From the UHGV virus genome UHGV-0096064: a DNA stretch of 64,000 nt; one strand, written 5' to 3'. The translations under genes and the position numbers were made by a program. Shown here in pieces: positions 10,701 through 54,427 of this stretch (within the stretch, counting starts at the first letter, position 1; every line of letters starts with the position of its first letter). The notes below the pieces were generated by a model that saw only the letters and a list, made by a program, of their open reading frames with translations, was not told the origin of the DNA and made no database searches. This DNA comes from a virus.

Positions 10701-12259
10701 GGCGTGAGGTCGGCGATGGACACGGGCGCTTCGGATGCGTCTATCCTGTCCATCTCCTCACTGACCCCGGCGAGGGCCGCAGTAATCTCACTCTCCCTCG
10801 CAGCCTGCTCAGGAGTGTACTTCTGGTTGACGACGCCGCCGGGCAATGCAGGGGCCTGAGAGGGCTCAGGAACGTTGAAGCCGCCGACCGTACCTTCCGG
10901 TTCGGGAGTGCGCGTTCCGCGTCCGGGAGGGGGCGTTGTGGGGCCGGAATCGGCATCCCCTCCACGCAGCCCACCGATGCCGCCGAGGAACCCGCCGACT
11001 GCGGCACCAGTGACGCCCGCTTCAAGCGCACCCTCGGTCAAGGGTCGGGCGTCACCAGTCGCCGCATTGTATGCGTAGTTCTGGGAGACCTGTTCCGCAT
11101 ACTCGGAAGGGAACTCCTCAGCCGCGCCGAGGGCGACGCCGGAACCGAGGCGGCGGATGATGCCGCCGCGAATGAGCGGGGCCAGCACACTGGAGCGGGC
11201 GATGAGGGCTTCCGGCCCAAGGACGCCGGATGCGGCACCGATGCCCGATGCGATGGGCAGGGCGGCGGCAGCGGCGTCGCGGGCCATCACAGCGCGGATG
11301 TCCGCGTCGCTCATGCCCTGTGCGGCGAGGGCCTGATACTGCGGCACACGGGACAACTTCTCCGTGGGCGCGTCAAAAATCTCCTGTGCGACCTGAGCGA
11401 CCACACCTGTGGCAGACTGGACGGCACCAGCCGCAGCCGCGCCTGTAGCCGCGCCGACTGCGGAACCCACGGGGCCGCCCACGGAACCGACAGCGGCACC
11501 GCCACCTGCGGCACCGATGCTGGTCAGGACATTGGGCCACTGCTCAAGCACGAGGTTCAGGAGAGGACGAAGGCTCCTGTCCTCATACATGCGGCGGAAG
11601 ACGACCCAAGAGTCCGAGTCGGCGGCACGCAGCTCCTGTTCGCGGCGGTAGTCGTTAAGGCGCTGCGCATTCTCCGAACGGCGCTGCACCTCGTTGGCCG
11701 CGCTCTGGGAAAGCTCTCTGGCAAGCGCGTCGGCAGACTCGCGCAAGTCCGCGCCTTCGGTCTTGGACATGGCGTCGGCAAGCAACGGGATGGTGTACCC
11801 TTGGTCAATGGCCGTGTCCAACCCCTTCTGCATACTGGCGTAGAAGTTGGACATCATGGCAGGGAACCCGGTAGCTGCCGCTTCCTGTTCCTCGGCTTCC
11901 CGGCGCAAGGGCTGGAGGATGCCGTTCTTGAAACGGTTCGCCGCCGTGGTGTCCTGACCAAACCGCTGCTTGGCGTATTCGGGCCACACCTGATTCTCGT
12001 ACTGGTCGAGAATCTCGTACTTCCTCTGGTACGACGCCTCCTGCCACCACGGTTGCCCACGGAGTTCATCAATGACCCGCCGGGTCTCCTCCATCATGTA
12101 GTTCTGCTCAAGTTTCTGAGCGAGCTTGGCCTCCTCTTTCTTGTTGAGTGAGGGGGCCTTGGGAGTGGCGGGGAGCGGCGCGTGCCTGTAACCCTGCAAG
12201 GGGTCGATGGGTTCGGTAAGGATGGAGCCGCTAGGAAGACCCATGTTGTTGCGTGCCAT
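4709..12259 (-). CDS. giant virion-associated/ejected protein (2516 aa) with internal HExxH (zincin-like) motif
   Basis: Uninterrupted 7.5-kb ORF. Gly/Ala-rich and Pro/Thr/Val-rich (TVEPTVEPTVEP) low-complexity linkers. Motif NTILHEFEHYFIYEG (HExxH) near the middle. C-terminal NIDLYNRPVV...DGTISTV segment. Position at the 3' end of the structural operon next to a lytic-transglycosylase virion protein. No polymerase or other enzymatic motif confidently recognised. Confidence 0.55.
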   Translation of the reverse strand: MARNNMGLPSGSILTEPIDPLQGYRHAPLPATPKAPSLNKKEEAKLAQKLEQNYMMEETRRVIDELRGQPWWQEASYQRKYEILDQYENQVWPEYAKQRFGQDTTAANRFKNGILQPLRREAEEQEAAATGFPAMMSNFYASMQKGLDTAIDQGYTIPLLADAMSKTEGADLRESADALARELSQSAANEVQRRSENAQRLNDYRREQELRAADSDSWVVFRRMYEDRSLRPLLNLVLEQWPNVLTSIGAAGGGAAVGSVGGPVGSAVGAATGAAAAGAVQSATGVVAQVAQEIFDAPTEKLSRVPQYQALAAQGMSDADIRAVMARDAAAAALPIASGIGAASGVLGPEALIARSSVLAPLIRGGIIRRLGSGVALGAAEEFPSEYAEQVSQNYAYNAATGDARPLTEGALEAGVTGAAVGGFLGGIGGLRGGDADSGPTTPPPGRGTRTPEPEGTVGGFNVPEPSQAPALPGGVVNQKYTPEQAARESEITAALAGVSEEMDRIDASEAPVSIADLTPMFENMQRAEAAGLDIKRLEPVFVRLQGYLNRNPMVTVNAVNAYTDWKMNNTGRPVTPLTPVNPTPAPVQTEPRVEPTVEPTVEPVSTPVEPTISPVPEAPRPTVPVSSTADFNALVNRAREVMRDIASSQPPASWTSEYGLSFYDKTEELLSLLARAYQIAPDERMRASVQSVIDNVDANLSQLSGQDIKNRFEQWKKVEHDRLLRTNAGTATEAGAGGVAANRQTAAAQPADGAGVVAGSPQDVVGAGGTTQGAGAGGAAYANPGTVAGDVQPNQPMGPQAGDGADSGRSGRPDDTAGAGQAVGDGGYPSTTEQRSSDGRFTGVLGRLAESGDSVESTTSILEQFRRDRQQYYKSSGYSDAEALRQAEMDMATANTINAFLQDIRNSAESMDAFNDLQHLLDRFRKELKRDEQSANTAAVLVYRMLNTLAQVSQKTVRQMLDEITLLPTTRSENQRGSFVAERIYDPNYNLANRAVRVRPDADVNTILHEFEHYFIYEGVLVLSRMSQAEIQSNPMASQLLADLKTLARYAGVPEANFFNPPTWGSRAHESITTAFERYMMDGTVPKNSGLQPIFERVKEFILRWYVQVREVIDQYLRYSSFRQLKKDSVAYELRNDIYNAVLPVEVRDAFDRQLTGLNTPVNDIIDALRLDVDLQTRVALDVQFTNVMTSMMQAGYDPRAAYTFAADYMRDAVGMQTASPREQINLEQDNALDTSIDYAAQTMEMADAAPDSLYNNAINEAMVDPQNMTSPLATLGNTPTYVTQQLVSGLLTPQADTSVNGMQNGNMLDSTSDVVRGAETASEPPVIRTPEEIAAEKIELGDAINAELSEGMAPGDAGETANPDGTFDVNEYAPLGDVEEDGLARAAELVSTIARENAESLRKGKEMEAYRRKGFIETAYSPEWRAGRWASFATSIRRNFVDGGADFRLYCLKHLSNSRTNPDETPLLQSFNTLQNRITGAARLFMNNVYEPIMKWANENAYDIDGKSVDVDKFMSDMGRYRTAQHTLEAAPKQQIELERAVQEAYMLPNGQEKIDAVKAAKSALSAYLARQAGEDVDVNLYGGRTVAEAQAEIAEVVARYGQEKCNAGLAMLGNGYSWVTRFLFENGQLSDADFARFDEWLYYCAMTTDKQAGTGGINDISYYAPRQNFHRYGSRTPAQDAWTALVQYGTRASRSVGMSEFGSYLRQAYLMFEKQGNVTSEAGNTKFYNGMAMVPENIVNGIRYGTGQHTKQAEQWARNVEDSTDVVIRVLDVDESGQSVIQAYRVMFDDPKVHESVRNPFYAAAPDKVLSALATVTRSYASVYTRFKPYFPVLTSVRDFTERVSYLPTRNFTNERGENVPGARIACQMVGFALNPMNFIRLARYWSTGTSGNAYIDRMMQDFKASGVDSSSNYNELLRLNKRRTATDVRAVIPNSLKKLGSGTIGKAINTITEWGNFFYALPTFAQFIKMRENGINMRDTVSGVSTLMNMAQRGRFTSRYLSPLFPFTNSIGQTASNLLGALGLHTMTFGNHPQARQLRMKAIRGWAVLFASYASIRALIPLIQDSLGEGEEGERILDMMPLSQVCTFIPVGTGGGAYVKWPTGFGPAMLGALAAYGFDRVERGKMSCGDLMATMMVVFGKSLVPNSMPAFEFKQNPMQFIIQTMSPMIMQPAVQVATGYSYSGAKLSYDSYNRTARQSDHYNLTTDRTWVNIAKGLYDAIGVDMAPEEIRALANGYLGGVLQGVMAWIEHDPLYKNPIYQSTREQLGPFWSALGATSIYATGMNVTQTSFYNAREHYENLIRRAGIGNALKGTVGEKKDILLSAGFTQEEADDYISIYVADRQLSDLNSETRKTLDALFGPDMDEDAIRQVYTDWSIARNAVQENTVNGLNYFNRGYRGRFDVPDEDASAALRHEVPNAPVIPGNIDLYNRPVVKNADGTISTVATMTEQDGDGLWVNFPSIGPNGERWSPEQAWQHYLLTGEHLGKFRTLEAAEKAAIALHDDQADLYMN

Positions 12260-41304: not shown

Positions 41305-42916
41305 TTACTTCCAATCGTCGGGAATGTCAACGTAGTTGGAAGCACTGGTCACGTTGCGGAAACACCTGCCATGGTCGGCGACATCAGGGTATGTCGTCCA
41401 TAGCGTGGGTACGGCGCTTGTTACCTGTGAGCAACCGAGGAATGTACTTACAAAACTTTCCACTTTGCTCTTATTGTCAAACAACCCGGACGGGATGCTC
41501 TTTAGAACCTGCCAATTCGCGAACGTATTCTGGAAAGATGTGACATCCGGCTGGTTCCTGAACAGTCCGGCGGGAATCTCCACACCAGCCCACCACTCGG
41601 AAAAGGCGTTATAGAAGTTGGTCGCCTTGATATTGTTGGCAAATATGTCTTCCGGTATATGCGTCATCTTGGACAAACCGGCAAACACGCTGCCGAAGTT
41701 AGTAACCTTGGTGTTCTTAGCGAAAAGGTTCGCAGGGATTTCTCCCACGATACTCTGACATCCGCTGAACGTGGCGAAGAACACCGTGGCATCCGGCTAG
41801 TTGTCGAACAGTCCTTCGGGTATCCCCGTTATCAGGCTGCAATCGGAGAACACATAGGAGAAATCGGTAATCTTGGGATTGTTGGCGAACAATTCCGCCG
41901 GGATAGTACCCGTCACCTTGTAGCAGCTTTCAAACAGATACTCGACATCCACGAGTTCCGTCATGGCGCTCAGGAGATTGCCCGGAATGGAACCCGTGAG
42001 GTTCCTGCAATTGTCGAACAGATGGGCCACGGTGGTGACTTTCGTATGCTTGGAGAACATGGAGGGCATGGGATTGGCCCAACTCGAACAATTTTGGAAG
42101 GTCGATGCAAACGAAGTCACTTCGAGATTGGTGTCGAATAATGTCGTGGGCACCGAAACCAGCGAGGTGCAACCATAGAACGTGTTGGTGAAGTCGACGA
42201 CTCTGGTGTTCTTGGCGAAAAGTCTGGACGGGATGGTGGTGATGCCGCACGTTGAGAATGTACCGTAAAAAAGTCGTGACGTCCGGGCAATTATCAAAGA
42301 GGTTGTTGGGAATGGCCTTGATGCCGAGGCATCCATAAAAACAATCGGAAAAACTGTTGACCTTGACGGTCTTGTCGAAGAGACCGGATGGGATTTCCGT
42401 CAAACCGGAACAGGTGTGGAACGTGGAGTTGAAGGTCTCGGTGTTCGGATTGCCGTCGAAAATCCCGGCGGGGATGGCCTTCAATTTGGAGCAGCCGTAG
42501 AACGCGCCCTTGAACGCGGTCGGGACAAGTTCCGGAAAGCTGTATCCGGTAGGGTCTTTCGGCACGATGCCGACAAGCGTGTCCTGCCACAAGTCCATGT
42601 TCTTTATGGCGTTCGTAAACGAGCACTTGCCGAGGTCGTCCGCCGTCACTCCTATGACGTACTCGCCCGGCGTCGCGTAAGTATGCGTGGCGTACTCGTC
42701 GAAATAGGCATCACTATACTCGATGCCCTTGGGGATGGTCGTAATGGTGCCGTCGCCCCAATCCACTTGTACGGCAGTCTGCGTTTTATAACCAGACATC
42801 ATATTCTCGAACGCATGGATGGAGCTCATGGCTTTCGTATTGCCCGATGTCGTAGCCTCGGTATTCACGACACAATAGACGTATTCCCTATCCTTATGAT
42901 TCAAATAAGCATACAT
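41305..42916 (-). pseudogene. LRR (BspA-like) paralog 2, disrupted by in-frame TAG (41797-41799) and a +1 frameshift in an A6/T6 run (42267-42272)
   Basis: Three track ORFs (41930..42940, 41797..42336, 41305..41784) are one continuous LRR reading frame. It reads DVTTF|YGTFSTCGITTIP across the homopolymer if one T is removed, and GLFDN-TAG-PDATVFFATFSGC across the stop. Confidence 0.65.
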
Positions 42917-42938
42917 AATGATACTCTCCTTATTTTCC

Positions 42939-42948
42939 ATATATATAT
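42939..42948. repeat. (AT)5 dinucleotide repeat upstream of LRR2 start
   Basis: atatatatat lies 23-32 nt upstream of the SD-preceded ATG (42914-42916) on the minus strand. Confidence 0.6.
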
Positions 42949-42992
42949 GGGGATTCAGTCAAAGAGCGACGCCATGTGAGGTCAGGAGGGGA

Positions 42993-44708
42993 CTACTTCC
43001 AGTCGTCAGGAATGTCGGCGTAGTTGGTCAACTTGCTGCAATTTCTGAAACATTTAGTTCCATTGGCGTCAGGATGAGTGACCCACAAGTCGGGAGCTGT
43101 TCCAACCAGCTTGTAACAATTCTCGAATATCTGGTGGAAATCCTTGATATTCGGATTGTTCACGAAGAGGTTCGTTGGCAGCGTCGTCAAATTGGTGCAT
43201 CCATTAAACATCATCTCCACGTCATCCAGAGCAGGATTGTTGTCAAACAACCCTTCCGGGATGGCACCCTCCAACGTGTTCAAACTATAGAAAGCGTAAG
43301 CCAAATTCTTTAACTTGGGGTTGTTGGCGAACAGCTTGGCGGGAATGGAGCCGTTGAAATCACAACCGTAGAACACGCTGTCGAGATACGTTAGCTCCGG
43401 GCAATTGGCAAAAAGATTCTCAGGAATGGGGCCGTTCAAATTGCATACCCTGAACAAACCGGAAAAAATCTCGGCAAGCGGGTTATGAGCGAACAACCCT
43501 TCCGGAATGGGGCCCACCAAACCATCACAACCATAGAAACAGCCGGAGAAGTTCGTCACTTCGGGGCAATTGGCAAAAAGGTTTTCAGGGATAGTTCCTG
43601 TGAGTCCCTCGCAGAACCGGAAGGTATCCGAAAACGTCTGCACCTTCGTGCAATTGGCAAAGAAGTTCTCAGGAATGGCACCAGTGAGCTTCTCACATTC
43701 ATAGAACGTCGCCTCGAAAGAAATAACTTCGGGGCAATTGGCGAACAAACCCGCAGGCAGGGAACCCGTCAGGCCCTTGCAACCGTAGAATGCAGAGACA
43801 AAGGTACCCGCCTTCCGGTTATTGGCGAAAAGATTCTCAGGAATGGAGCCAGTGATATTTTCGTCAAAATAGAACAATCGGTCAAAAGTGTAAGCTATGG
43901 TGTTGTGGGCAAAAAGGTTTTCAGGGATAGGCCCTGTCAATCCAGGGCAGTGGCTGAATACATAGGCGAACGATGTCACATTGGGATTGTTGGCGAAGAG
44001 ATTCTCAGGAATTTCAGTCAGTCCCTCACAACCATTGAACACGCTGTCAAACTTGTAAACTTTTGGACAATTGGCAAAAAGGTTTTCAGGGATAGACGTG
44101 ATATTTTCACAGCTATAGAATGTGGAAGCAAACGACTCGACCTTGGTGTTCTTGGTGAAAAGGTCTTCGGGAAGCGCACCCGTAAGTCCAAGACAATAAT
44201 AGAACGTATTTTCAAAAGTGGTGGCGTCTACGTTTTTGTAGAATATGCCTTTAGGAACCTGCGTCAACTTCTTGCAACTATAAAAGGCATAAGCAAGTCC
44301 GTCATGCCGGAAAACAGGCAGCGAATAGGACTCGGCACCCTTGGGGCCAATCCCGATAAGAGTTCTTCTATAGACATTCCATTCACTCTGGTTGATGTCA
44401 TAACCATGCAACTTGCAGACGCTGAAATCATCAGCGTAAACAGTCACAGTATATTCGCCGGGGGTGGCATAGTCATGCGTGGAATATTTATCCCAATACT
44501 GTGAATAAAACTCCGTACCCTTGGGAATTTCGGAAATTGAACCATCACCCCAATCAATAGTAATTGCCGTCAGGGATTGCTCATCAAGACCAAAGCTATT
44601 GAATGAATATACTGGAACCACAAACTCGGTATCACCCTCGTTGGTGGCCTCGGTATTTATAAGAAAGATAAGGCTTTCACGCGGCTCATTGTCACGATAA
44701 CCATACAT
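42993..44708 (-). CDS. LRR (BspA-like) repeat protein, paralog 3 (571 aa)
   Basis: About 18 LRR_5-type repeats (FxxCxxLTGxIPExLFANxP.V..F). Start refined to the MYGYRDNEP ATG with AAAGGAGA upstream. The track ORF extends a further 234 nt upstream. Confidence 0.7.
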   Translation of the reverse strand: MYGYRDNEPRESLIFLINTEATNEGDTEFVVPVYSFNSFGLDEQSLTAITIDWGDGSISEIPKGTEFYSQYWDKYSTHDYATPGEYTVTVYADDFSVCKLHGYDINQSEWNVYRRTLIGIGPKGAESYSLPVFRHDGLAYAFYSCKKLTQVPKGIFYKNVDATTFENTFYYCLGLTGALPEDLFTKNTKVESFASTFYSCENITSIPENLFANCPKVYKFDSVFNGCEGLTEIPENLFANNPNVTSFAYVFSHCPGLTGPIPENLFAHNTIAYTFDRLFYFDENITGSIPENLFANNRKAGTFVSAFYGCKGLTGSLPAGLFANCPEVISFEATFYECEKLTGAIPENFFANCTKVQTFSDTFRFCEGLTGTIPENLFANCPEVTNFSGCFYGCDGLVGPIPEGLFAHNPLAEIFSGLFRVCNLNGPIPENLFANCPELTYLDSVFYGCDFNGSIPAKLFANNPKLKNLAYAFYSLNTLEGAIPEGLFDNNPALDDVEMMFNGCTNLTTLPTNLFVNNPNIKDFHQIFENCYKLVGTAPDLWVTHPDANGTKCFRNCSKLTNYADIPDDWK

Positions 44709-44738
44709 ATTGGTTCTCCTTTTTGTCCTTTCTATACA

Positions 44739-44748
44739 AGAGAGAGAG
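44739..44748. repeat. (AG)5 dinucleotide repeat upstream of LRR3 start
   Basis: agagagagag lies ~31-40 nt upstream of the ATG at 44706-44708 (minus strand). Confidence 0.55.
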
Positions 44749-45255
44749 CTGGCAAGGACTGGAGCGGGACAGGGTGTGGGCCGGGAACTGGACTGGAAAT
44801 TTCTCCGAAAAAATTTTGGAGGGGGTGAATGCTGTGGATTCAGACGGGGGTCAACGAAGCCCCCACCCCCCCTCGGACTGGACTCATCTACGAACTCGGC
44901 GTCGACGGTGTCGCGCAATGTAGGTTGGCACAGGAATTGCATAGGAAAAGTTGCTCGAAGTCGCGAGCGTTCCTATATATGGAGTGGCCGGGGCGCGCCA
45001 AGTCCTTCGTCCAAATCCCCCGCCGGGCCGTCCCTACCCTCGACGCCCTCGACGCCCTCGACGCCCTCCCGCCCGCCTCACTCCATCACCTTGATGAAGC
45101 GGCCTGACGCGCCGCCTGCTCCACGTTCGCGGCTCATCCCTACCTTATATATACCCTGACCTTTTCGCCGCAAGCTGACGCGCTTCCCGTCCTGCTATGT
45201 CATCAGCTCCATCCAGTCCCGCCAGTCCCGCCAGTCCTACCAGACAACCAAGTGC

Positions 45256-45548
45256 ACAATGTAATATCAACAAACCTATATTACATTGTTACCTACACTG
45301 TAGTATTACACTGTTACAGGTGTTATATTGTAGCATTACACTGTAACGCGCAATGTACTTTTACAATGTAACACCTGTTACAATGTAATGTTATTGTAAA
45401 TTACATTGCACACTTGCTTACATTGTTATGGCATTGTTTTTTACATTGTTGCAGGTGTTACATTGTTTTTTACAATGTAAGTTACACTGTAAGTGTAATT
45501 ACATTGCATGTAACATTGCGTCGCGCAATGTAAATTTTTACAATGTAA
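45256..45548. repeat. dense array of 11-bp palindrome TTACAnTGTAA (about 17 copies in 300 bp; about 24 in 45250-46250) - putative iterons/operator array
   Basis: For example TTACAATGTAA at about 45361, 45378, 45470, 45538, 45817; TTACATTGTAA at about 45686 and 46119; TTACACTGTAA at about 45336 and 45482. Includes a perfect 12-bp IR ACAATGTAATAT-N10-ATATTACATTGT at 45256-45289. Confidence 0.75.
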
Positions 45549-45571
45549 TTACACACAGCGCGGGTTCCTTA

Positions 45572-45589
45572 TTGATAATGGATTATCAA
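45572..45589. promoter_or_regulatory. perfect palindrome TTGATAAT-GG-ATTATCAA (operator-like)
   Basis: 8-bp arms with a 2-bp spacer, immediately followed by CTTGCAACTTTTGCAA. Confidence 0.5.
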
Positions 45590-45752
45590 CTTGCAACTTT
45601 TGCAAAAAACGAGATTCCGTAAGTTGTTGAATTTGTTGACCCGGAAAAATTTTCGCAAACCCCAAAAAGTGGTGAAAAAATTACACAGGGAGAAAGTTAC
45701 ATTGTAAAAACGGGGACGAACGGGAGGACAGGAAGAGTAGAAAAATCAAGGG

Positions 45753-45811
45753 TTTATATATATTATTTTTTAAAAAAGAATAAAATATATATATGTACTA
45801 TGTAACTTTTT
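45753..45811. other. AT-rich stretch (~59 bp, 3-4 G/C) - candidate DNA-unwinding element
   Basis: tttatatatattattttttaaaaaagaataaaatatatatatgtactatgtaactttttacc in an otherwise ~60% GC genome. Flanked by iteron-like repeats. Confidence 0.45.
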
Positions 45812-46429
45812 ACCCCCTTACAATGTAACGGCCTATCCTAGTCGGCAAAAATGCAAAATGCTTTTTTCCAAATCGCCGAACTTGATTGTGAAAATTTTCA
45901 CCACTCAGGCGGCCTCGATTTACATAAGCTGCTATGTAACTTTTTGCGGAACCCCCCAAAAAAAACTTGCAAATTTGCATACCCCCTTGAAAATCAGCGT
46001 AACACTTCAACGATTTCAACAACTTGCAACCAATTTTAAAATGCAAGTGAATTTTTTCACACTTGCAACTAGTTGGAATATATTAGGATACATCTTGCAA
46101 GTCAATTTGCAACCCCATTTTTACATTGTAAAAAGTAAAATCGTGTTACTCGTTTACATTGCGCAACACCGTCGACGCCGCCTTACACTGCATAACGCAA
46201 TGTAAAAACAATGCAACAATCCTCACTATGTAATTACATTGTTCTGCCCCTTGTCCAGTTCTGAGCGCGACACACGCGACGCCGTCCCCAAGTCCTGAGC
46301 TCCGCCCTGTCGCCTCTGCCTTCCGAATCCGGTTTCACTATCCCCAATAATCCAGTTCACCTTAACATCTTGATATTCCTACTCAATCCAGTTCAACAAA
46401 AATAATTCCGAAAATTTTCGCTACAACTC

Positions 46430-46458
46430 TTGACAACATTTCAGTAACTCCTTATCTT
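46430..46458 (+). promoter_or_regulatory. sigma70-like promoter TTGACA-N17-TATCTT for the early operon
   Basis: TTGACA at 46430-46435 and TATCTT at 46453-46458, ~85 nt upstream of the first early gene (46544). Confidence 0.45.
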
Positions 46459-46543
46459 GGCATCAACAACGGCGAACAACGCCGCCGGTTGCTACCGTAG
46501 CAACCCGATAACTTCACCTAATCCTATTCAAAGGAGTTCCCCA

Positions 46544-46894
46544 ATGGCTATGAGCTTTATGCTTTCCGTCCAGTCCACGTTCGCGCCTGAGCCCATTACG
46601 GGCATCGTCAAGGGTGATCTTGTCGTCTACCATCATGACGGCACGGTTGTCGCCGTCTATCACAAGGGCTCTGTCCTGTTCGCTCCGGTCTATTCGGATT
46701 CCCATATCGAGGCCGTGAACTTCTTGATGCACCTGTTCGCCATCCCCTTTTTTGTCCGGAACATGAACGGGACGAACTGGATAACGTCCCGGCTCACGGG
46801 GGAAACCCGGTATACCGTGAAGCCATACCTTGTCGCTCTTGCCGACTATCAGCTTGAGTTCCTCGACAACCTTGAAGCAATCGTCAACGCGTGA
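46544..46894 (+). CDS. small early protein, paralog family member P1
   Basis: 116 aa. ATG preceded by AAGGAG. Weakly shares a Y.G..(V/I)A.Y core with the downstream paralogs. Confidence 0.5.
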   Translation: MAMSFMLSVQSTFAPEPITGIVKGDLVVYHHDGTVVAVYHKGSVLFAPVYSDSHIEAVNFLMHLFAIPFFVRNMNGTNWITSRLTGETRYTVKPYLVALADYQLEFLDNLEAIVNA

Positions 46895-46905
46895 GGAATC
46901 CAGTC

Positions 46906-47316
46906 ATGAGAACAAACATCCCCGATAGAATTATCAGGGCTATCCACGCTTATTCCCCGTGGGCTTGCGAGACTGTGCAAGTTGTCGTCGAATGCCGTCG
47001 ACTGGCGAACGGACGAATTGTTTCATCTCTCACTGTCCGGTATAAGGGGTTCGCCATTGCTTGCTATGATTCCGAAACCGGAACGCTTTCCATTATCCGG
47101 TGCCACAACTTTGACGGGATGGCGGCGGCTCGAATCAATTCCGTACTGCGTGCCTTCAAGTTGAATGAACGGCTGGCATATCATAAGGGGGAATGCCTGA
47201 TTCTTACCAGTGACGCCAACGTCCCTATGGAACCTTATGACGTATTCAACTTGTACGTCCCTATTGACAACCGTCCTGTTGTCCCTTACTATGGATTACA
47301 GTTGACCGACAACTGA
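46906..47316 (+). CDS. small early protein, paralog family member P2
   Basis: Core LTVRYKGFAIACYDSETGTLSIIRCHNFDGMAAARINSVLRAFKLN. Confidence 0.55.
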   Translation: MRTNIPDRIIRAIHAYSPWACETVQVVVECRRLANGRIVSSLTVRYKGFAIACYDSETGTLSIIRCHNFDGMAAARINSVLRAFKLNERLAYHKGECLILTSDANVPMEPYDVFNLYVPIDNRPVVPYYGLQLTDN

Positions 47317-47330
47317 CTTGCAACTATCCA
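47302..47330 (+). promoter_or_regulatory. promoter-like TTGACC-N17-TATCCA
   Basis: The -10-like TATCCA is part of the recurrent ATCCAGTTCAACC motif (47326-47338). ~35 nt upstream of the ATG at 47365. Confidence 0.35.
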
Positions 47331-47364
47331 GTTCAACCACACTGGCACCAAAGGAGTGTGTACC

Positions 47365-47757
47365 ATGCGGCAGATTACTAAGGAAATGGTGGAAGCGATA
47401 CGAGCCCCCCGGCGGTACTGGAAGGACAACACGCTTGTTTCCGTCATACACAACGAGGCAACCGGACTGTTCAGCTTGTCCGTCTACCTCCATGACCACC
47501 TGATTGCCCGGTACGTCAACACCGACAACACCTTGTGCATATCCACGGCGGGGTGGTCTACCATGACCACAAGGGAGAGGCTCAACGGCGTCCTTCACGC
47601 TTTCGGACTCCCGCACTATACCCGCCGCATTTGCCATAACCTTTGGCTGTTCGACGAGAACGAGAACCGGGAGGTGATGAAGGGCAATAACTTCTATGAC
47701 ATTCCCATTGACCGGGACAAGTGCCCCGTCAACCTCCCCCCGCTCGTCAAGCCCTGA
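47365..47757 (+). CDS. small early protein, paralog family member P3
   Basis: Core LSVYLHDHLIARYVNTDNTLCISTAGWSTMTTRERLNGVLHAFGLP. ATG preceded by AAGGAG. Confidence 0.55.
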   Translation: MRQITKEMVEAIRAPRRYWKDNTLVSVIHNEATGLFSLSVYLHDHLIARYVNTDNTLCISTAGWSTMTTRERLNGVLHAFGLPHYTRRICHNLWLFDENENREVMKGNNFYDIPIDRDKCPVNLPPLVKP

Positions 47758-47859
47758 CCCCGAACTTTCATCCAGTCCAGTACCCGGCGGACAAGCGGAC
47801 TCTACATCCGCCCGCCGTCACGCGAACCCTAACGCCCATGCCAAGCATGGAGGTACATC

Positions 47860-48666
47860 ATGCAACAAGTTATCCGCCACTCCGTCCAGTCCTTCATGGC
47901 CTGCACCCCCTACCGTCACCGGGATACCGAGATTGCCGTTTCCCATGACGACAACGGCACCCCGTCCGTCCGCCTCAACTACTACGGCAACCGCGTAGCC
48001 CTCTACTCTCAGGGCGTGCTCATGGTTTCCCCATGCGGATACGCCACCCGCTCGACTGTCGTCCGCATCAACGCCGTGCTTGACGCTTGCGGCATCCCCG
48101 CCCGCTTCATCCTTAAGCGCACCCCCTCCAATCGGAACCAGCTCCATATCAGCCACAAGGGGAAGACCTCCCTTGTCGGGAACCTCCACGCATCCCACGC
48201 TTTCAACGTCCCTGACGGCTATCAGCCGGGGTTCAACGGCTACTCCCATTCAAGCCCTGACCCCCTCCCTACCCGTGAACAGCCCACGCCCAACCGTTCC
48301 TATTCGTCCATGAAGACGTGGCGCATGGCCGCACAAGCCCTCTCCGCTTTCCGGGAGTACGACTCCCGCCATGTCCATGTCCGATACGTCGACTACGACA
48401 CGCCCGCTCAACAGGCGCGCCTCTATATGCACAAGACGAACCTTGTCTATCTTACCCACGGTTCCGTTGGCTTCTTCCCTCCCGAATCCAAGACGCAAGC
48501 TGAGTGCCTGTCCGTTGTCCTCCCCATCATCGACGTACCCGCCACCGTCCGGTGGAACGGCGGGCATCCTGTCGTCGTACCGAATGACGTCGACCAGCCG
48601 CCATTCCATTTCCCCGACAAGCAAGCCCCTGTCGTCTTTGTCAGGGCTTCCCAAATTTTCGTCTAG
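47860..48666 (+). CDS. early protein, paralog family member P4 (longer, 268 aa)
   Basis: Core VRLNYYGNRVALYSQGVLMVSPCGYATRSTVVRINAVLDACGIP. Pro/Ser-rich middle. Confidence 0.55.
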   Translation: MQQVIRHSVQSFMACTPYRHRDTEIAVSHDDNGTPSVRLNYYGNRVALYSQGVLMVSPCGYATRSTVVRINAVLDACGIPARFILKRTPSNRNQLHISHKGKTSLVGNLHASHAFNVPDGYQPGFNGYSHSSPDPLPTREQPTPNRSYSSMKTWRMAAQALSAFREYDSRHVHVRYVDYDTPAQQARLYMHKTNLVYLTHGSVGFFPPESKTQAECLSVVLPIIDVPATVRWNGGHPVVVPNDVDQPPFHFPDKQAPVVFVRASQIFV

Positions 48667-48716
48667 CCCTCGTCCAGTCCATCCCTTGAACCCATACCCA
48701 GACAGGAGAATACCCA

Positions 48717-49139
48717 ATGGAAGACCAGCGACTTGACCTGTCCCTGTGGGAGTGCCGCCACTTCCCGAACATCTTCAACGCTCTGAGGAATCGCGAATGG
48801 CGGTACGCCGCCGCCGACTACCTCGTTGCCACCGACAACGACAGGATACAGGTGACCCGCGCTCTCTATGACGGCTTCACCATCCTGTCCCTGTCGAACG
48901 GGAATACCCTGCACTTTCCCAACCCCCAACCCCCGGCGGATTCCGTCCCGTTCATCCGGTTTACGCTCATGCAATGCCGCGTTCCGTTCGCCGTCGAACT
49001 CCTCCCGTCCGGGCAACTGGAGTTCAGGACGAAAAACAACATGCGGATTGACCCGTCCGGGTTGCCCCTCGTGCTGAACTCCGAGTTCCGCATGTCCCGC
49101 AATACCTTTGTTCAAACCATGTTGAAGGCGTGGAGGTAG
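48717..49139 (+). CDS. small early protein P5 (divergent family member?)
   Basis: 140 aa, weaker similarity (RYAAADYLVATDNDRIQVTRALYDGFTILSLSNGNTLHF). Confidence 0.45.
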   Translation: MEDQRLDLSLWECRHFPNIFNALRNREWRYAAADYLVATDNDRIQVTRALYDGFTILSLSNGNTLHFPNPQPPADSVPFIRFTLMQCRVPFAVELLPSGQLEFRTKNNMRIDPSGLPLVLNSEFRMSRNTFVQTMLKAWR

Positions 49140-49140
49140 C

Positions 49141-49497
49141 ATGTCACACAAGCCGCCAGTCATTGCGCCATATGTCGACGCCTTCATCAAGCGCCATATC
49201 CTACGGCATCGGCAAGTGGTCATACAGAACTTCACCAGCGAGGAAGGACAACGGACGACTTGGCTATACAACAAGGGCAATCTTGTCCTTATGTTATCCA
49301 ACTTCCAGTTGTCCATCCATACTTATCACCTGACCGAATTTACTGAGGCACTTGCCAACGGCGTGCTGAAAGCCTATGATATGGGTATCCATATTCATGC
49401 TACCGACAGGTATGTTTATATTCAGTATGACAATGGGCATACCGTGAAGAAAGATAAAGGCAATATTTTTTCCGTCTTTGTCCCGTTAAAGGATTGA
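49141..49497 (+). CDS. small early protein P6 (family member; noticeably AT-richer coding sequence)
   Basis: Core TTWLYNKGNLVLMLSNFQLSIHTYHLTEFTEALANGVLKAYDMGIH. Start 1 nt after the P5 stop (GGAGG inside P5). Confidence 0.5.
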   Translation: MSHKPPVIAPYVDAFIKRHILRHRQVVIQNFTSEEGQRTTWLYNKGNLVLMLSNFQLSIHTYHLTEFTEALANGVLKAYDMGIHIHATDRYVYIQYDNGHTVKKDKGNIFSVFVPLKD

Positions 49498-49567: not shown

Positions 49568-49909
49568 ATGTATATGACTCTTTCTGTTGACGATTTCCTG
49601 GATGCGTTCAATGACGCCGGGCGTGGCAACCAGTTTTCCAGTCAGGGCTTGCGCGCCATGTTCGATTACTTCACGGACTTGGAAGACCAGACAGGCGAAC
49701 CGATGGAACTGGATGTTGTGGCTATCTGCTGCGACTATACCGAGTATGATAGCGCCCTCGACGCCGCTTCCGAATACGGATTCGAGCCGGAAGAAGACGA
49801 CTCCCCCGAAGACGTCGAAGATTCCGCTTTCGACTGGTTGCAGGAAAGGACGATGGTCATTCCTGTCGGCGAGGAGACAAGCGGGGGCGTGATTATCGCC
49901 GCGTTCTAG
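49568..49909 (+). CDS. small strongly acidic protein (candidate DNA mimic / anti-restriction)
   Basis: 113 aa, very Asp/Glu-rich (EPEEDDSPEDVEDSAFDW). Promoter-like TTGACA(49494)-N17-CATAAC upstream. Confidence 0.45.
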   Translation: MYMTLSVDDFLDAFNDAGRGNQFSSQGLRAMFDYFTDLEDQTGEPMELDVVAICCDYTEYDSALDAASEYGFEPEEDDSPEDVEDSAFDWLQERTMVIPVGEETSGGVIIAAF

Positions 49910-50327: not shown

Positions 50328-50957
50328 ATGAGGACTGAACAGATTACCCGTACATGGTACAAGTTCGAGGAACTTCCGGAAGACGACCAGCAAAAGATTA
50401 TGGATGATATGTTGCTGCGTTCTGATCTTGCTCAAAGAGAAATGGAATACGTGCAGGATAGGGATTTTTGGAGTGACCTTGAAAAGCAATTCCATTTGGG
50501 TGTACAGGTTGACCAGCATATATACTATGACGTTGCCCGTTACGTGGATGTTGTCGCCTACCATCGGGAAGATTTCTATGAGCATGTCCTGTCTTTGTAC
50601 GCCCGCAAGTTTACGGACGATGAACGCAAGTTTATCAATCAGCTCATTGATGCGGATGTTCTGTCGTTTTCTATCGACCGTCGCCATAAGTATTCTTGTA
50701 GCGGCGTCCGCGTCGAGTGTGCTCTCCGGTACATGAGCGAACTTACGGAGTTTGAAGATAACTATGACGAGGCCGTGGACATGGCGGACAAGTTCCTGTC
50801 TGTCGTCGAGGAATACGCTGAGGACTTTCTTGAGGAAGCGCGCCTCGCCATCCGCCGCCTCTATGAGTACGCCACAAGCGAGGAATATATCCGGGACTGC
50901 TGCATCAACTTGGATAGCGAATACACCTATGACGATCAGGGGAGGCTTGTCTTATGA
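50328..50957 (+). CDS. acidic protein (209 aa), candidate anti-restriction-like
   Basis: Asp/Glu/Tyr-rich. Contains YYDVARYVD, reminiscent of the YDVARYY segment in ArdA. Similarity is weak and by eye only. Confidence 0.4.
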   Translation: MRTEQITRTWYKFEELPEDDQQKIMDDMLLRSDLAQREMEYVQDRDFWSDLEKQFHLGVQVDQHIYYDVARYVDVVAYHREDFYEHVLSLYARKFTDDERKFINQLIDADVLSFSIDRRHKYSCSGVRVECALRYMSELTEFEDNYDEAVDMADKFLSVVEEYAEDFLEEARLAIRRLYEYATSEEYIRDCCINLDSEYTYDDQGRLVL

Positions 50958-51331
50958 GCCACGTACTTGGTTCCTTCTTCCGGGGCATCCCATGCACTGA
51001 CGGCACCCTGACTTGTTCCGTTGACGGGTTCTCCGTTCTCGACAGGAAAGACGTCACGCTTGCCTATTGCAAGGACGGTTGCGTTACCGTCTTTACCAGC
51101 CCCTCCATCCTTAACGATTTCAGGAACCGCGCCGCCGTCAACCGGATGTTGGCTTACGCTAGGACTAAGTACAACTGGAAGGTATCCTACATTTTCCACG
51201 GTATGCGTCCTTTCAACAATTACCTGAGTTCCGTTAGGGACGACAACACCGAGTCCTCTTGTTTCAGGATGGACGGCATAAGCTCCATCAAGTTCAGTCT
51301 TCAAACGGGTGACATTTACATCTTCAACTAA
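50954..51331 (+). CDS. hypothetical protein
   Basis: 125-aa ORF overlapping the upstream stop (ATGA). Confidence 0.4.
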   Translation: MSHVLGSFFRGIPCTDGTLTCSVDGFSVLDRKDVTLAYCKDGCVTVFTSPSILNDFRNRAAVNRMLAYARTKYNWKVSYIFHGMRPFNNYLSSVRDDNTESSCFRMDGISSIKFSLQTGDIYIFN

Positions 51332-51957: not shown

Positions 51958-52470
51958 GTGATGATAGGGCTATTCATTCAAGCAACCAGCATGGAGGGGA
52001 CGCGCAACGTCCTGCTTGTCCTGACCGGACAACAGGAGAAAGTCCTGAACCTTCAAGGCAACGAGTCGTTGATTGCCACGGTTATCAACGGTATGGACTT
52101 GGCTTTGCCTGAGACTCCTCCTGTTCCAGACAACGGGATGGGAGAGCCCCGGCAAGTCTGCATTCCTCATACCCTGTCTGAGCTTACGCCAACGGACAAG
52201 TTCAAGCTGGTCATGAGCAACCCCCCCCTGTATGCGGACGGGGAAGACGTCGACTTGCTGGACGTGGACTGGTCATGGGTTATCCCCCATCCCATACGGG
52301 CATCCCGGTTTGTTCGTATCTTGCAGAAGCTAGGCATCCATACCGTGGCGGATATGTCCATCCCGTCCCGTGCCGACTACATGCACACGCCGGGGATTGG
52401 GAGGATAAGCCTCATGGCTATCGAGGGCGTGCTCCATATGTACGGCTACACCTTGAGCGCGGGGGATTGA
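51958..52470 (+). CDS. protein with C-terminal RNA polymerase alpha-subunit CTD-like helix-hairpin-helix domain
   Basis: RASRFVRILQKLGIHTVADMSIPSRADYMHTPGIGRISLMAIEGVLHMYGYTL follows the alpha-CTD pattern (L.LSVR..N.L....I..VGDL......LL...N.G.KSL.EI...L...GL). Start uncertain. Confidence 0.5.
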   Translation: MMIGLFIQATSMEGTRNVLLVLTGQQEKVLNLQGNESLIATVINGMDLALPETPPVPDNGMGEPRQVCIPHTLSELTPTDKFKLVMSNPPLYADGEDVDLLDVDWSWVIPHPIRASRFVRILQKLGIHTVADMSIPSRADYMHTPGIGRISLMAIEGVLHMYGYTLSAGD

Positions 52471-53983: not shown

Positions 53984-54427
53984 ATGTCTGACTATCGTGA
54001 AATGGCTCTGGACTTCATGAACAAGCAGGCTACCATTCGTGAAATGACTCCCGCCGAATACGTCGCCGGGGTTAAGGAAGCCGAGAAGCAGTTCGAGCTG
54101 CTCGATCAGGTCGAGGAGGAATCCTCTGACCAGACCATGCTCGTCGCTGACCCCGCCACTGCCATCAAGGAACGCACCATCACTTGCTGCTGCTGCGGGA
54201 ACCAGTACCGCCTGCTGACCCGCAAGCACCTTGCCAGCCACGGGTTGGACTATGAACAATACCGCCAGCTTTGCGGCTACAAGCCTGACCTTCCCCTTAT
54301 CGCCAAGTCCTTGCAGCGTGAGCGCCGCAACCGCATGCGCGAGATGCGCCTGTGGCAGAAGAAGGAAGGCGCTCAGGGTCATGAGCAGGCTCAGGTTCTC
54401 CCCAAGCCCAAGGCTTTAGAGGACTAG
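53984..54427 (+). CDS. Ros/MucR-family zinc-finger transcriptional regulator
   Basis: ERTITCCCCGNQYRLLTRKHLASHGLDYEQYRQLCGYKPDLPLIAKSLQRERRNRMREM aligns with the Ros/MucR core ([56 protein letters not shown]). Confidence 0.65.
   Translation: MSDYREMALDFMNKQATIREMTPAEYVAGVKEAEKQFELLDQVEEESSDQTMLVADPATAIKERTITCCCCGNQYRLLTRKHLASHGLDYEQYRQLCGYKPDLPLIAKSLQRERRNRMREMRLWQKKEGAQGHEQAQVLPKPKALED

What the first reader, a model, noticed from the sequence alone, without database searches (positions are those of the whole stretch)
46544..49497. Tandem array of six small paralogous early genes immediately downstream of the origin-like region: candidate diversifying anti-defence or host-takeover family
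Genes at 46544, 46906, 47365, 47860, 48717 and 49141 (116-268 aa) share a core readable by eye: hydrophobic-x-(V/L)-x-Y-x-G-x-x-(I/V)-A-x-Y-...-L-x-I-...-G-(W/Y)-x-T-x-T-T-x-x-R-(I/L)-N-x-V-L-x-A-x-G. P2, P3 and P4 are the clearest; P1, P5 and P6 are more divergent. I do not recognise the family. The genes are the first transcribed from the early promoter next to the iteron region, so they enter and are expressed first. The last member has much lower GC than its neighbours, suggesting recent acquisition or turnover. Multi-copy, rapidly diverging, leading-region small proteins are the typical signature of anti-restriction or anti-defence loci.
Basis: partly seen in the sequence, partly recalled or inferred. 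Interest (0 to 1): 0.75.

Follow-up and report, generated by a model that had tools for sequence, protein, structure and literature searches.

The report
Tandem PF23790 early-gene paralog array
The first six genes of an uncultivated 64-kb phage's early operon are diverged tandem copies of a widespread phage-only protein family (Pfam PF23790) that is catalogued but uncharacterised; the high copy number is real and unusual, but an anti-defence role is untested.

Summary
All six ORFs are real. Each has a Shine-Dalgarno site and is under purifying selection between strains.

**Family membership**
- P3 is a canonical member of Pfam PF23790 (Kyano_Gp96) / PHROG 554.
- The P4 N-terminal domain and P2 are clear divergent members.
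- P1, P6 and a second, degenerate domain in the P4 C-terminus pass leave-one-out profile and shuffle tests.
- P5 has no sequence support. Only a moderate-confidence fold model resembles the family.

**The family**
- It is large: 4,107 clusters at 50% identity.
- It is confined to phages, basic (median pI 9.1), and has no solved structural relative.
- It is almost always single-copy, so this array is a lineage-specific expansion.
- In T7-like phages it sits 1.4-3.8 kb from the left genome end, which fits early expression.

**Evolution of the array**
- Only P3 keeps the family's conserved polar cluster (23 of 27 conserved columns). The other copies keep 4-11.
- Strains 93-97% identical differ by whole-gene cassettes: P1-P2-P3, P1-P1b-P2-P3 or P1-P3.
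- Residue-level evolution is purifying (pN/pS 0.02-0.44), not diversifying.

**Function**
No link to any known anti-defence family was found, and function remains unknown. My best guess is a set of early accessory binder proteins derived from a scaffold that binds a phosphate-bearing ligand.

The parts
45257..46241 (.). Context. Non-coding field holding 20 copies, in both orientations, of the half-site CA(A/C)TGTAA.
   Evidence: All 20 copies lie here and none elsewhere in the 64 kb. TACAATGTA with up to 1 mismatch gives 33 matches against 5.3 expected. The contig of strain L083 begins 58 nt before the position matching 45257.
46430..46458 (+). Sigma-70-like promoter candidate TTGACA-17-TATCTT, followed by a 5' leader with two hairpins and the P1 ribosome-binding site.
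   Evidence: Consensus scan, 10 of 12 positions. Both hexamers and the spacing are identical in strains L002 and L083, and the substitutions fall in the spacer. Function is inferred, not shown.
46544..46894 (+). P1, 116 aa, acidic (pI 5.6). A divergent paralog that lacks the N-terminal part of the domain and is closest to the P4 C-terminal domain.
   Evidence: BLASTP to P3 and to P4 residues 188-231, both E = 0.003 in a small database and in register. Leave-one-out HMM 18.0 bits against a shuffle maximum of 6.0. Not detected by the general family HMM. pN/pS 0.08-0.09.
46906..47316 (+). P2, 136 aa. A divergent PF23790 member that is an optional cassette: absent in strain L083 and accompanied by an extra P2-like gene (P1b, 123 aa) in strain L002.
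   Evidence: Family HMM E = 3.1e-5. hhalign probability 94.7%. Keeps 10 of 27 conserved family columns. Indels described.
47365..47757 (+). P3, 130 aa. The canonical PF23790 / PHROG 554 member.
   Evidence: Pfam 51.6 bits (gathering threshold 27), E = 1.2e-13. phrog_554 E = 1.3e-16. Family HMM E = 2.4e-32. Keeps 23 of 27 conserved columns. AlphaFold mean pLDDT 84, with the core above 93.
47860..48666 (+). P4, 268 aa. It has an N-terminal PF23790 domain (residues 1-86, 47860-48117), a Pro/Ser-rich linker, and a probable second degenerate domain (residues 147-268, 48298-48666).
   Evidence: N-terminal domain: family HMM E = 3.1e-15, BLASTP to P3 E = 2.7e-8. C-terminal domain: 5.5-6.2 bits against family HMMs, above all 500 shuffles; leave-one-out 12.9 bits against 11.2; hhalign aligned 78 columns in register.
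48717..49139 (+). P5, 140 aa. Membership is unproven. It is an ORFan by sequence but compatible with the family fold.
   Evidence: No significant profile score. No homologue found in IMG/VR or cultured phages. AlphaFold with a 7-row alignment of window sequences gave core pLDDT 65-84 and an alpha / four-strand / alpha / two-strand topology. Its top four BFVD hits are also hits of the P3 model. It is a real gene: ribosome-binding site present and pN/pS 0.12-0.23.
49141..49497 (+). P6, 118 aa, low GC (45.7%). A divergent member.
   Evidence: Family HMM E = 0.043, the best hit after the clear members, aligned over HMM positions 35-100. Beats all shuffles with three HMMs at 8.6, 12.2 and 16.3 bits. 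Leave-one-out 11.6 bits against 8.5. GC.

Best explanation
The locus is a lineage-specific tandem expansion of one small phage protein family, Pfam PF23790 (Kyano_Gp96) / PHROG 554.

**Shown**
- One copy (P3) is canonical.
- P2, both halves of P4, P6 and P1, plus the strain-specific P1b, are diverged duplicates. P5 is probably one too.
- The diverged copies keep the scaffold (N-terminal helix, four- to five-strand antiparallel meander, C-terminal helix) but have lost most of the family's conserved polar residues.
- Whole-gene cassettes are still being gained and lost between close strains, at 4-bp microhomologies. The retained genes are under purifying selection.

**Inferred**
- The genes are co-transcribed as the promoter-proximal part of the early operon.
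- The conserved polar residues are N22-T23, H43, G63-W64, T66, T68-T69-K70, R72 and N74. They sit in alternate turns of the meander and at the N-terminus of helix 2, so they fall on one edge of the fold. With the basic pI, this looks like a site for a phosphate-bearing ligand (nucleic acid or nucleotide).
- P3 would retain that activity. The degenerate copies would be re-purposed binders with other targets. Together they would form a set of individually dispensable early proteins that act on the host (takeover or counter-defence).

Identity and evolutionary history: confidence about 0.9. Biochemical mechanism: about 0.3. The single figure given (0.6) is a blend of the two.
For: **Family identity:** (4,107 representatives at E <= 1e-3).

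**Divergent paralogs:**

**Single copy elsewhere**
- 78 of 81 metagenomic loci, even at a threshold of 8 bits.
- 388 places in 385 cultured-phage records.

**Confined to phages**
- One plasmid record.
- Three MAG contigs among 185,579 species genomes.

**Early location**
- RSJ2 ORF4 at 3.76 kb.
- 1.4-1.9 kb from the left end in Pseudomonas phages CHF7 and CHF33 and Vibrio phage R25D.
- Upstream of DnaB and PolA in L001.
- In a cluster of small ORFs in Syn9.

**Other points**
- Promoter-like site conserved in three strains, and no + strand terminator-like site within the array.
- Fold and position of the conserved residues.
- Family median pI 9.1.
- Cassette gain and loss with GAGG and CAAC junctions.
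- Purifying selection, pN/pS 0.02-0.44, against 0.10 for the DNA polymerase.
Against: - No experiment or annotated homologue gives a function. Every database name is 'hypothetical'.
- The ligand-site argument rests on predicted topology only. Coordinates could not be inspected.
- P5 has no sequence support, and its model was built with paralogs in the alignment.
- Informative domain fusions are absent, and there is no conserved neighbour.
- Early transcription is inferred from position and a consensus match, not measured.
Confidence: 0.6

Rival explanations
1. Anti-defence array. Each paralog would inhibit a different host defence system or allele by direct protein binding. Copy number and cassette content would track the defence repertoire of local hosts.
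For: - The genes occupy the first-entering, first-expressed position.
- Cassettes are present or absent among near-identical strains.
- P6 has deviant GC.
- The paralogs have lost the ancestral conserved site, as expected for re-targeted binders.
- Strongly acidic small proteins lie immediately downstream.
Against: - No similarity to any known anti-defence protein by sequence or fold.
- The family is very broadly conserved and single-copy, with an invariant polar motif, which is unlike most inhibitor families.
- There is no diversifying selection between strains.
- It is absent from plasmid leading regions.
- It has no consistent partner genes.
Confidence: 0.25
2. Phage-directed DNA-binding proteins. 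The canonical copy, and perhaps its paralogs, would bind the adjacent field of 20 CA(A/C)TGTAA sites or other phage DNA. They would control early transcription, replication initiation or genome ends, rather than acting on the host.
For: - The proteins are basic.
- The conserved Thr/Lys/Arg/Asn cluster sits at a helix N-terminus.
- A unique repeat field lies directly upstream, and it coincides with a contig end in one strain.
Against: - The family occurs in very different phages (T4-like cyanophages, T7-like, jumbo) with no consistent repeat array nearby. The median of the best 8-mer multiplicity was 5 per locus.
- No known DNA-binding fold matched.
- The cassettes are individually dispensable.
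Confidence: 0.12
3. Mixed array. Only P2, P3, P4 and perhaps P6 would be paralogs. P5, and possibly P1, would be unrelated ORFans that happen to be interleaved. The eye-readable motif in them would be chance similarity between small beta-rich proteins.
For: - P5 scores in the noise with every profile.
- P1 is not detected by the general family HMM.
- P5 keeps only 4 of 27 conserved columns.
Against: - P1 passes the leave-one-out test clearly, at 18 bits.
- The P5 model has the family's order of elements and retrieves the same BFVD targets as P3.
- Gene size, operon position and register in the multiple alignment all agree.
Confidence: 0.2

Closest known systems
Pfam PF23790 (Kyano_Gp96) / PHROG 554. 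Examples are Synechococcus phage Syn9 gp90, S-RIM8 gp90 and Ralstonia phage RSJ2 ORF4.
   Same: P3 matches above the Pfam gathering score along its full length. It has the same motif (LHG-N-x-IA ... G-W-x-T-x-T-T-K/R-E-R-L-N-G), the same size and the same location in a region of small early ORFs.
   Different: Elsewhere the family is a single gene of about 100-120 aa. Here there are six to seven tandem genes, one of them a two-domain fusion, and all but one have lost most of the conserved polar residues. The family has no known function.
Gene-copy expansion of host-interaction genes in viruses, such as the poxvirus K3L 'gene accordion'. This comparison comes from my own knowledge and was not tested here.
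   Same: Both show tandem duplication of a small early gene, with copy-number differences between close relatives.
   Different: The copies here are ancient and highly diverged (12-30% identity), not recent identical amplifications. Each is under purifying selection. No selective agent is known.
First-entering anti-restriction genes: T7 gene 0.3 (Ocr) and ArdA or KlcA in plasmid leading regions. The comparison of position comes from my own knowledge.
   Same: They occupy the same promoter-proximal, first-entering position and are small proteins.
   Different: Ocr and ArdA are strongly acidic DNA mimics, whereas these proteins are mostly basic. There is no sequence or fold match to anything in PDB. 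The family is essentially absent from plasmids.
Phage 'sponge' proteins that bind immune signalling nucleotides (Tad1, Tad2, Acb2). This is a functional analogy only, from my own knowledge.
   Same: They are also small phage proteins of about 100 aa, widely distributed, with a conserved ligand pocket.

Membership tests
Pfam PF23790 (Kyano_Gp96) / PHROG 554 | Scores above Pfam's curated gathering threshold (27 bits) | tested here: met
   Met for P3 only, at 51.6 bits. P4 scores 19.8 bits, below the threshold. P1, P2, P5 and P6 have no Pfam hit. phrog_554: P3 E = 1.3e-16, P4 E = 6.7e-5.
Pfam PF23790 (Kyano_Gp96) / PHROG 554 | Significant match to an independent profile of 147 family representatives | tested here: met
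   P3 E = 2.4e-32, P4 N-terminal domain E = 9.3e-17, P2 E = 3.1e-5. P6 is borderline at E = 0.043. P1 and P5 are not detected. P6 and the P4 C-terminal domain beat all shuffles.
Pfam PF23790 (Kyano_Gp96) / PHROG 554 | Conserved polar motif (N22-T23, L-H-G-N-x-I-A, G-W-x-T-x-T-T-K-E-R-L-N) | tested here: not met
   Met by P3, which keeps 23 of 27 columns conserved at 70% or more. Not met by the others: P4 N-terminal domain 11, P2 10, P6 8, P1 7, P4 C-terminal domain 7, P5 4.
Pfam PF23790 (Kyano_Gp96) / PHROG 554 | Fold: helix, four- to five-strand antiparallel meander, helix | tested here: inconclusive
   The P3 model is confident: pLDDT 84, pTM 0.80. The P5 model is moderate (pLDDT 62.8, core 65-84), has the same order of elements and shares BFVD hits with P3. 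However, the alignment used for it contained paralogs. P1, P2, P4 and P6 were not modelled.
Pfam PF23790 (Kyano_Gp96) / PHROG 554 | Single-copy gene of about 100-120 aa in phage genomes | tested here: not met
   Size is met, except for P4 at 268 aa. Copy number is not met: six to seven tandem genes here, against one copy in 78 of 81 loci and 388 places in 385 records.
Known anti-defence protein families | Sequence or structural homology to a characterised anti-defence protein | tested here: not met
Known anti-defence protein families | Embedded among recognised anti-defence genes or regulators | tested here: not met
   The downstream neighbours match only PHROGs of unknown function. No neighbour recurs in more than 8 of 78 family loci.
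Known anti-defence protein families | Signs of an arms race: diversifying selection and rapid turnover | tested here: inconclusive
   Cassette gain and loss between strains is seen. pN/pS is 0.02-0.44, similar to the DNA polymerase, so there is no positive selection at residue level.
Known anti-defence protein families | Inhibits a defence system in vivo | not testable with these tools
   This needs expression in hosts that carry defined defence systems.
Early genes driven by a virion RNA polymerase (as in phage N4) | Phage encodes a virion RNA polymerase, and its early promoters are hairpins with a short loop | tested here: inconclusive
   A 2,516-aa protein matches the virion RNA polymerase phrog_2206 over only about 350 residues, E = 1.1e-13. 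Hairpins exist in the P1 leader and in the repeat field, but no promoter consensus was established. The closest cultured relatives by DNA polymerase are Pseudomonas phages phiR18 and KPP25, at 28% identity.

The most novel reading that the evidence does not exclude
PF23790 could be a new, very widespread class of early phage proteins that bind a nucleotide or nucleic-acid signal of host immunity, acting as a sponge or shield. Binding would use the invariant Thr/Lys/Arg/Asn/Trp edge site. In that case this phage lineage has expanded the scaffold into a panel of six to eight re-targeted binders that are swapped as cassettes between strains. That would make it a natural library for mapping the family's targets.
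Probability: 0.1. Interest if true: 0.8.

Novelty: new variant of a known kind. Interest (0 to 1): 0.45.

Why it matters
PF23790 is one of the larger phage-only families with no known function. It has at least 4,107 clusters at 50% identity and occurs in T4-like cyanophages, T7-like phages, jumbo phages and this podophage. It has a highly conserved polar site and no solved structural relative.

This lineage is the only one seen here in which the family has expanded. The array contains one canonical copy, several copies that have lost the site, and an internal two-domain fusion. Natural strains differ by single cassettes. That gives a ready-made comparison of canonical against degenerate copies, and of presence against absence, for finding what the family does.

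If the function turns out to be host takeover or counter-defence, it would annotate thousands of early phage genes at once.

Tried and rejected
1. **DNA similarity to cultured phages:** none, in either near or distant mode.
2. **Concatenated protein query:** I joined P1, P5, P6 and the P4 C-terminus into one query to recover their homologues in a single search. The candidate list saturated at 8,000 and nothing scored, so that search was wasted.
3. **Relatives of the divergent genes:**
   - P5 and P6 have no relatives in IMG/VR.
   - P5 and P4 have none in cultured phages.
   - P4 in JGI metagenomes gave only one more fragment, 98% identical.
5. **Literature:** searches for PF23790, Kyano_Gp96, phrog_554 and DUF8033 found nothing. 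The Syn9 transcriptome paper was not in the library.
6. **Domain fusions:** longer family members carried no informative partner domain.
7. **Neighbour clustering:** in 78 loci no partner was conserved.
8. **Repeat arrays near family genes in other phages:** not consistent.
9. **Apparent truncation of P3 in a JGI contig (L093):** this is a run of N in the record, not a pseudogene.
10. **Gene 50954-51331 as a seventh member:** only 4 bits, E = 1.5 in the window scan. Not accepted.
11. **Non-coding RNAs:** Rfam and tRNA scans of the window found nothing.
Full report
**Setting**

The window is an uncultivated podophage genome of about 64 kb. A 64,226-bp ENA scaffold is 99.99% identical to it over the region compared.

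It encodes a primase/helicase, a 2,516-aa protein whose N-terminal part matches the virion RNA polymerase PHROG, a portal and a large terminase. It has no DNA match among 50,697 cultured phage records. Its DNA polymerase is only 28% identical to the nearest cultured relatives, Pseudomonas phages phiR18 and KPP25.

Late genes on the - strand end at 44942. A 1.6-kb non-coding stretch follows. A long + strand operon of small genes then starts at 46544.

**The observation**

The six ORFs are at the stated coordinates: 116, 136, 130, 268, 140 and 118 aa. Each has a GGAG-type ribosome-binding site. Each is under purifying selection between strains, with pN/pS of 0.02-0.44 against 0.10 for the DNA polymerase. 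They are therefore real genes.

Paralogy was tested in several ways.

- *Pairwise BLASTP* is clear only for P3 against P4 (E = 2.7e-8). It is weak but in register for P2-P3, P2-P4, P1-P3, P1-P4 C-terminus and P4-P6.
- *A family HMM* was built from 147 metagenomic representatives, excluding this phage, and run against all 516 window ORFs. It gave P3 E = 2.4e-32, P4 residues 1-86 E = 9.3e-17, P2 E = 3.1e-5 and P6 E = 0.043 in register. Noise began at E = 2.7, and P1 and P5 were in the noise.
- *Shuffle tests:* P6 and P4 residues 147-268 exceeded all 500 shuffles.
- *Leave-one-out HMMs* built from the putative paralogs gave P1 18.0 bits (shuffle maximum 6.0), P6 11.6 (8.5), P4 C-terminus 12.9 (11.2) and P5 0.2 (p about 0.06). 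Nine neighbouring early proteins used as controls did not pass.
- *A structure model of P5:* AlphaFold with only the seven window sequences as alignment gave pLDDT 65-84 over residues 31-120. The order of elements was helix, four strands, helix, two strands, the same as in P3. The top four BFVD matches of the P5 model (K7XYR9, A0A6G5XVG1, A0A2I7RPM6, A7IYF8) are all matches of the P3 model too. This is supportive but partly circular.

The verdict is that five of six genes are paralogs by sequence statistics and P5 is probable only. P4 carries two copies of the domain. P6 does have low GC, 45.7% against 59-60% for P4 and P5.

**What the family is**

P3 is a full-length member of Pfam PF23790 'Kyano_Gp96' (51.6 bits against a threshold of 27) and of PHROG 554. 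Both are of unknown function.

An exhaustive profile search found 4,107 cluster representatives at 50% identity with E <= 1e-3, and 1,060 with E <= 1e-10. They are typically 100-120 aa. Of 80 aligned members, 79 hit PF23790 and nothing else.

The family is basic, with median pI 9.1. It is essentially restricted to phages:
- 385 cultured-phage records. Most are T4-like cyanophages, with some T7-like Pseudomonas, Vibrio and Ralstonia phages and a few others.
- One plasmid record.
- Three MAG contigs among 185,579 species genomes.

Every annotation is 'hypothetical', and no paper in the library mentions the family.

**Where family members sit**

In Autographiviridae, where gene order follows entry and timing (established for T7-like phages), the gene lies at the far left:
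- 1.4-1.9 kb from the end in Pseudomonas phages CHF7 and CHF33 and in Vibrio phage R25D.
- 3.76 kb from the end in Ralstonia phage RSJ2, as ORF4.

A metagenomic relative has it in a block of small genes upstream of DnaB and PolA. In Syn9 it is gp90, within a run of tiny ORFs after a helicase.

No neighbour is conserved; the best recurs in 8 of 78 loci. No informative domain fusion was found.

**What is special here**

The family is almost always single-copy. That holds in 78 of 81 loci even at a lax 8-bit threshold, and there are 388 places in 385 cultured records. This lineage has six to seven genes and seven to eight domains.

Only P3 keeps the conserved residues. Of 27 columns conserved at 70% or more, the copies keep:

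| Copy | Conserved columns kept (of 27) |
|---|---|
| P3 | 23 |
| P4 N-terminal domain | 11 |
| P2 | 10 |
| P6 | 8 |
| P1 | 7 |
| P4 C-terminal domain | 7 |
| P5 | 4 |

Several paralogs share a C-terminal (I/V)-P-x-D motif in the window-paralog alignment, which fits duplication within the lineage.

Strains that are 93-97% identical in DNA differ by exact cassettes:
- The window has P1-P2-P3.
- L002 has an extra 123-aa P2-like gene (P1b) inserted between GAGG repeats.
- L083 lacks P2, with the junction at CAAC.

Turnover is therefore in gene content, not in residues.

**Transcription**

A TTGACA-17-TATCTT site at 46430-46458 lies 85 nt upstream of P1. Both hexamers are unchanged in three strains, although the surrounding non-coding region is only 85-87% identical. 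No + strand terminator-like site lies within or after the array. Early co-transcription is thus plausible but inferred.

**Mechanism**

The conserved residues are N22-T23, H43-G44, G63-W64-x-T66 and T68-T69-K70-E71-R72-L73-N74. They lie in the beta1-beta2 turn, the beta3-beta4 turn and the beta5-to-helix-2 loop with the helix N-terminus. In a beta-meander these alternate turns share one edge. The residues should therefore cluster into one polar site next to a helix dipole, which is typical of phosphate or nucleic-acid binding. With the basic pI, this is my best inference for the canonical protein. I could not inspect coordinates.

The degenerate paralogs would be re-purposed binders. Their individual dispensability and first-in position fit accessory functions that act on the host.

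The anti-defence reading remains possible (I give it about 0.25), but it has no positive evidence beyond position and cassette turnover. A role on the adjacent repeat field is a further rival (about 0.12).

**Novelty**

The family is catalogued, so this is not a new kind of thing. The tandem expansion, with one canonical copy and many site-degenerate copies, an internal two-domain fusion and strain-level cassette variation, is a new variant of it. It is also a useful handle on a very large family of unknown function. Interest is moderate (0.45).

Noticed in passing
window 45257-46241: The half-site CA(A/C)TGTAA occurs 20 times, in both orientations, and often forms TACA(A/C/T)TGTA palindromes. 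All copies lie inside this 1-kb non-coding stretch and none elsewhere in the 64 kb. The 66.5-kb contig of strain L083 begins 58 nt before the matching position. This may be a genome terminus, an origin or a regulatory array.
   Followed up: partly
window, genome-wide; cluster at 44756-48680: The octamer TCCAGTYC occurs 38 times against 4.7 expected. Fourteen copies lie in the 4 kb around the array. They include the P2-P3, P3-P4 and P4-P5 spacers and sites upstream of P1. Function unknown.
   Followed up: partly
window 45590-46115 and 47313-47320: The palindrome-containing motif CTTGCAA recurs about eight times between the repeat field and P1, and once in the P2-P3 spacer. This was seen by eye in the sequence and not tested statistically.
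   Followed up: no
window 49568-49909 and 50328-50957: Two strongly acidic small proteins lie directly downstream of the array: pI 4.05 with net charge -26, and pI 4.43 with net charge -25. They match only PHROGs of unknown function. The second, together with 51991-52470, is the fastest-evolving gene between strains (88-90% nt identity, pN/pS 0.4-0.56). On charge alone they look more like DNA-mimic or anti-restriction candidates than the array does.
   Followed up: partly
window 50954-51331: This 125-aa protein weakly resembles the lineage paralog profile: 4.0 bits, p about 0.004 against its own shuffles, but E = 1.5 in the window-wide scan. It could be a very distant seventh member. Not accepted.
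   Followed up: partly
window 41317-44694 (- strand genes, including the 649-aa repeat protein at 42993-44942): This block includes a protein with many IPENLFAN-type leucine-rich repeats. In strain L002 an unrelated 885-aa gene replaces the block, while the flanks stay 87-96% identical. It is probably a swapped host-recognition cassette.
   Followed up: partly
window 4709-12259 (- strand): A 2,516-aa protein whose residues 82-429 match the virion RNA polymerase PHROG 2206 (E = 1.1e-13). By DNA polymerase, the closest cultured phages are Pseudomonas phiR18 and KPP25, at only 28% identity. The phage therefore represents a deep, uncultivated lineage.
   Followed up: partly
window 46459-46510 (P1 leader): Two conserved hairpins lie between the promoter-like site and the P1 ribosome-binding site: CGGCG-AACAA-CGCCG and GGTTGCT-ACCGT-AGCAACC. 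One strain has a base change at the foot of the second stem.
   Followed up: no
L002 12516-12959 and L083 8138-8581 (equivalent to window about 53984-54427): A Ros/MucR-family (PF05443) protein and a NUDIX hydrolase are encoded further down the same early operon. Ros/MucR may hint at an alphaproteobacterial host (precomputed Pfam hits).
   Followed up: no
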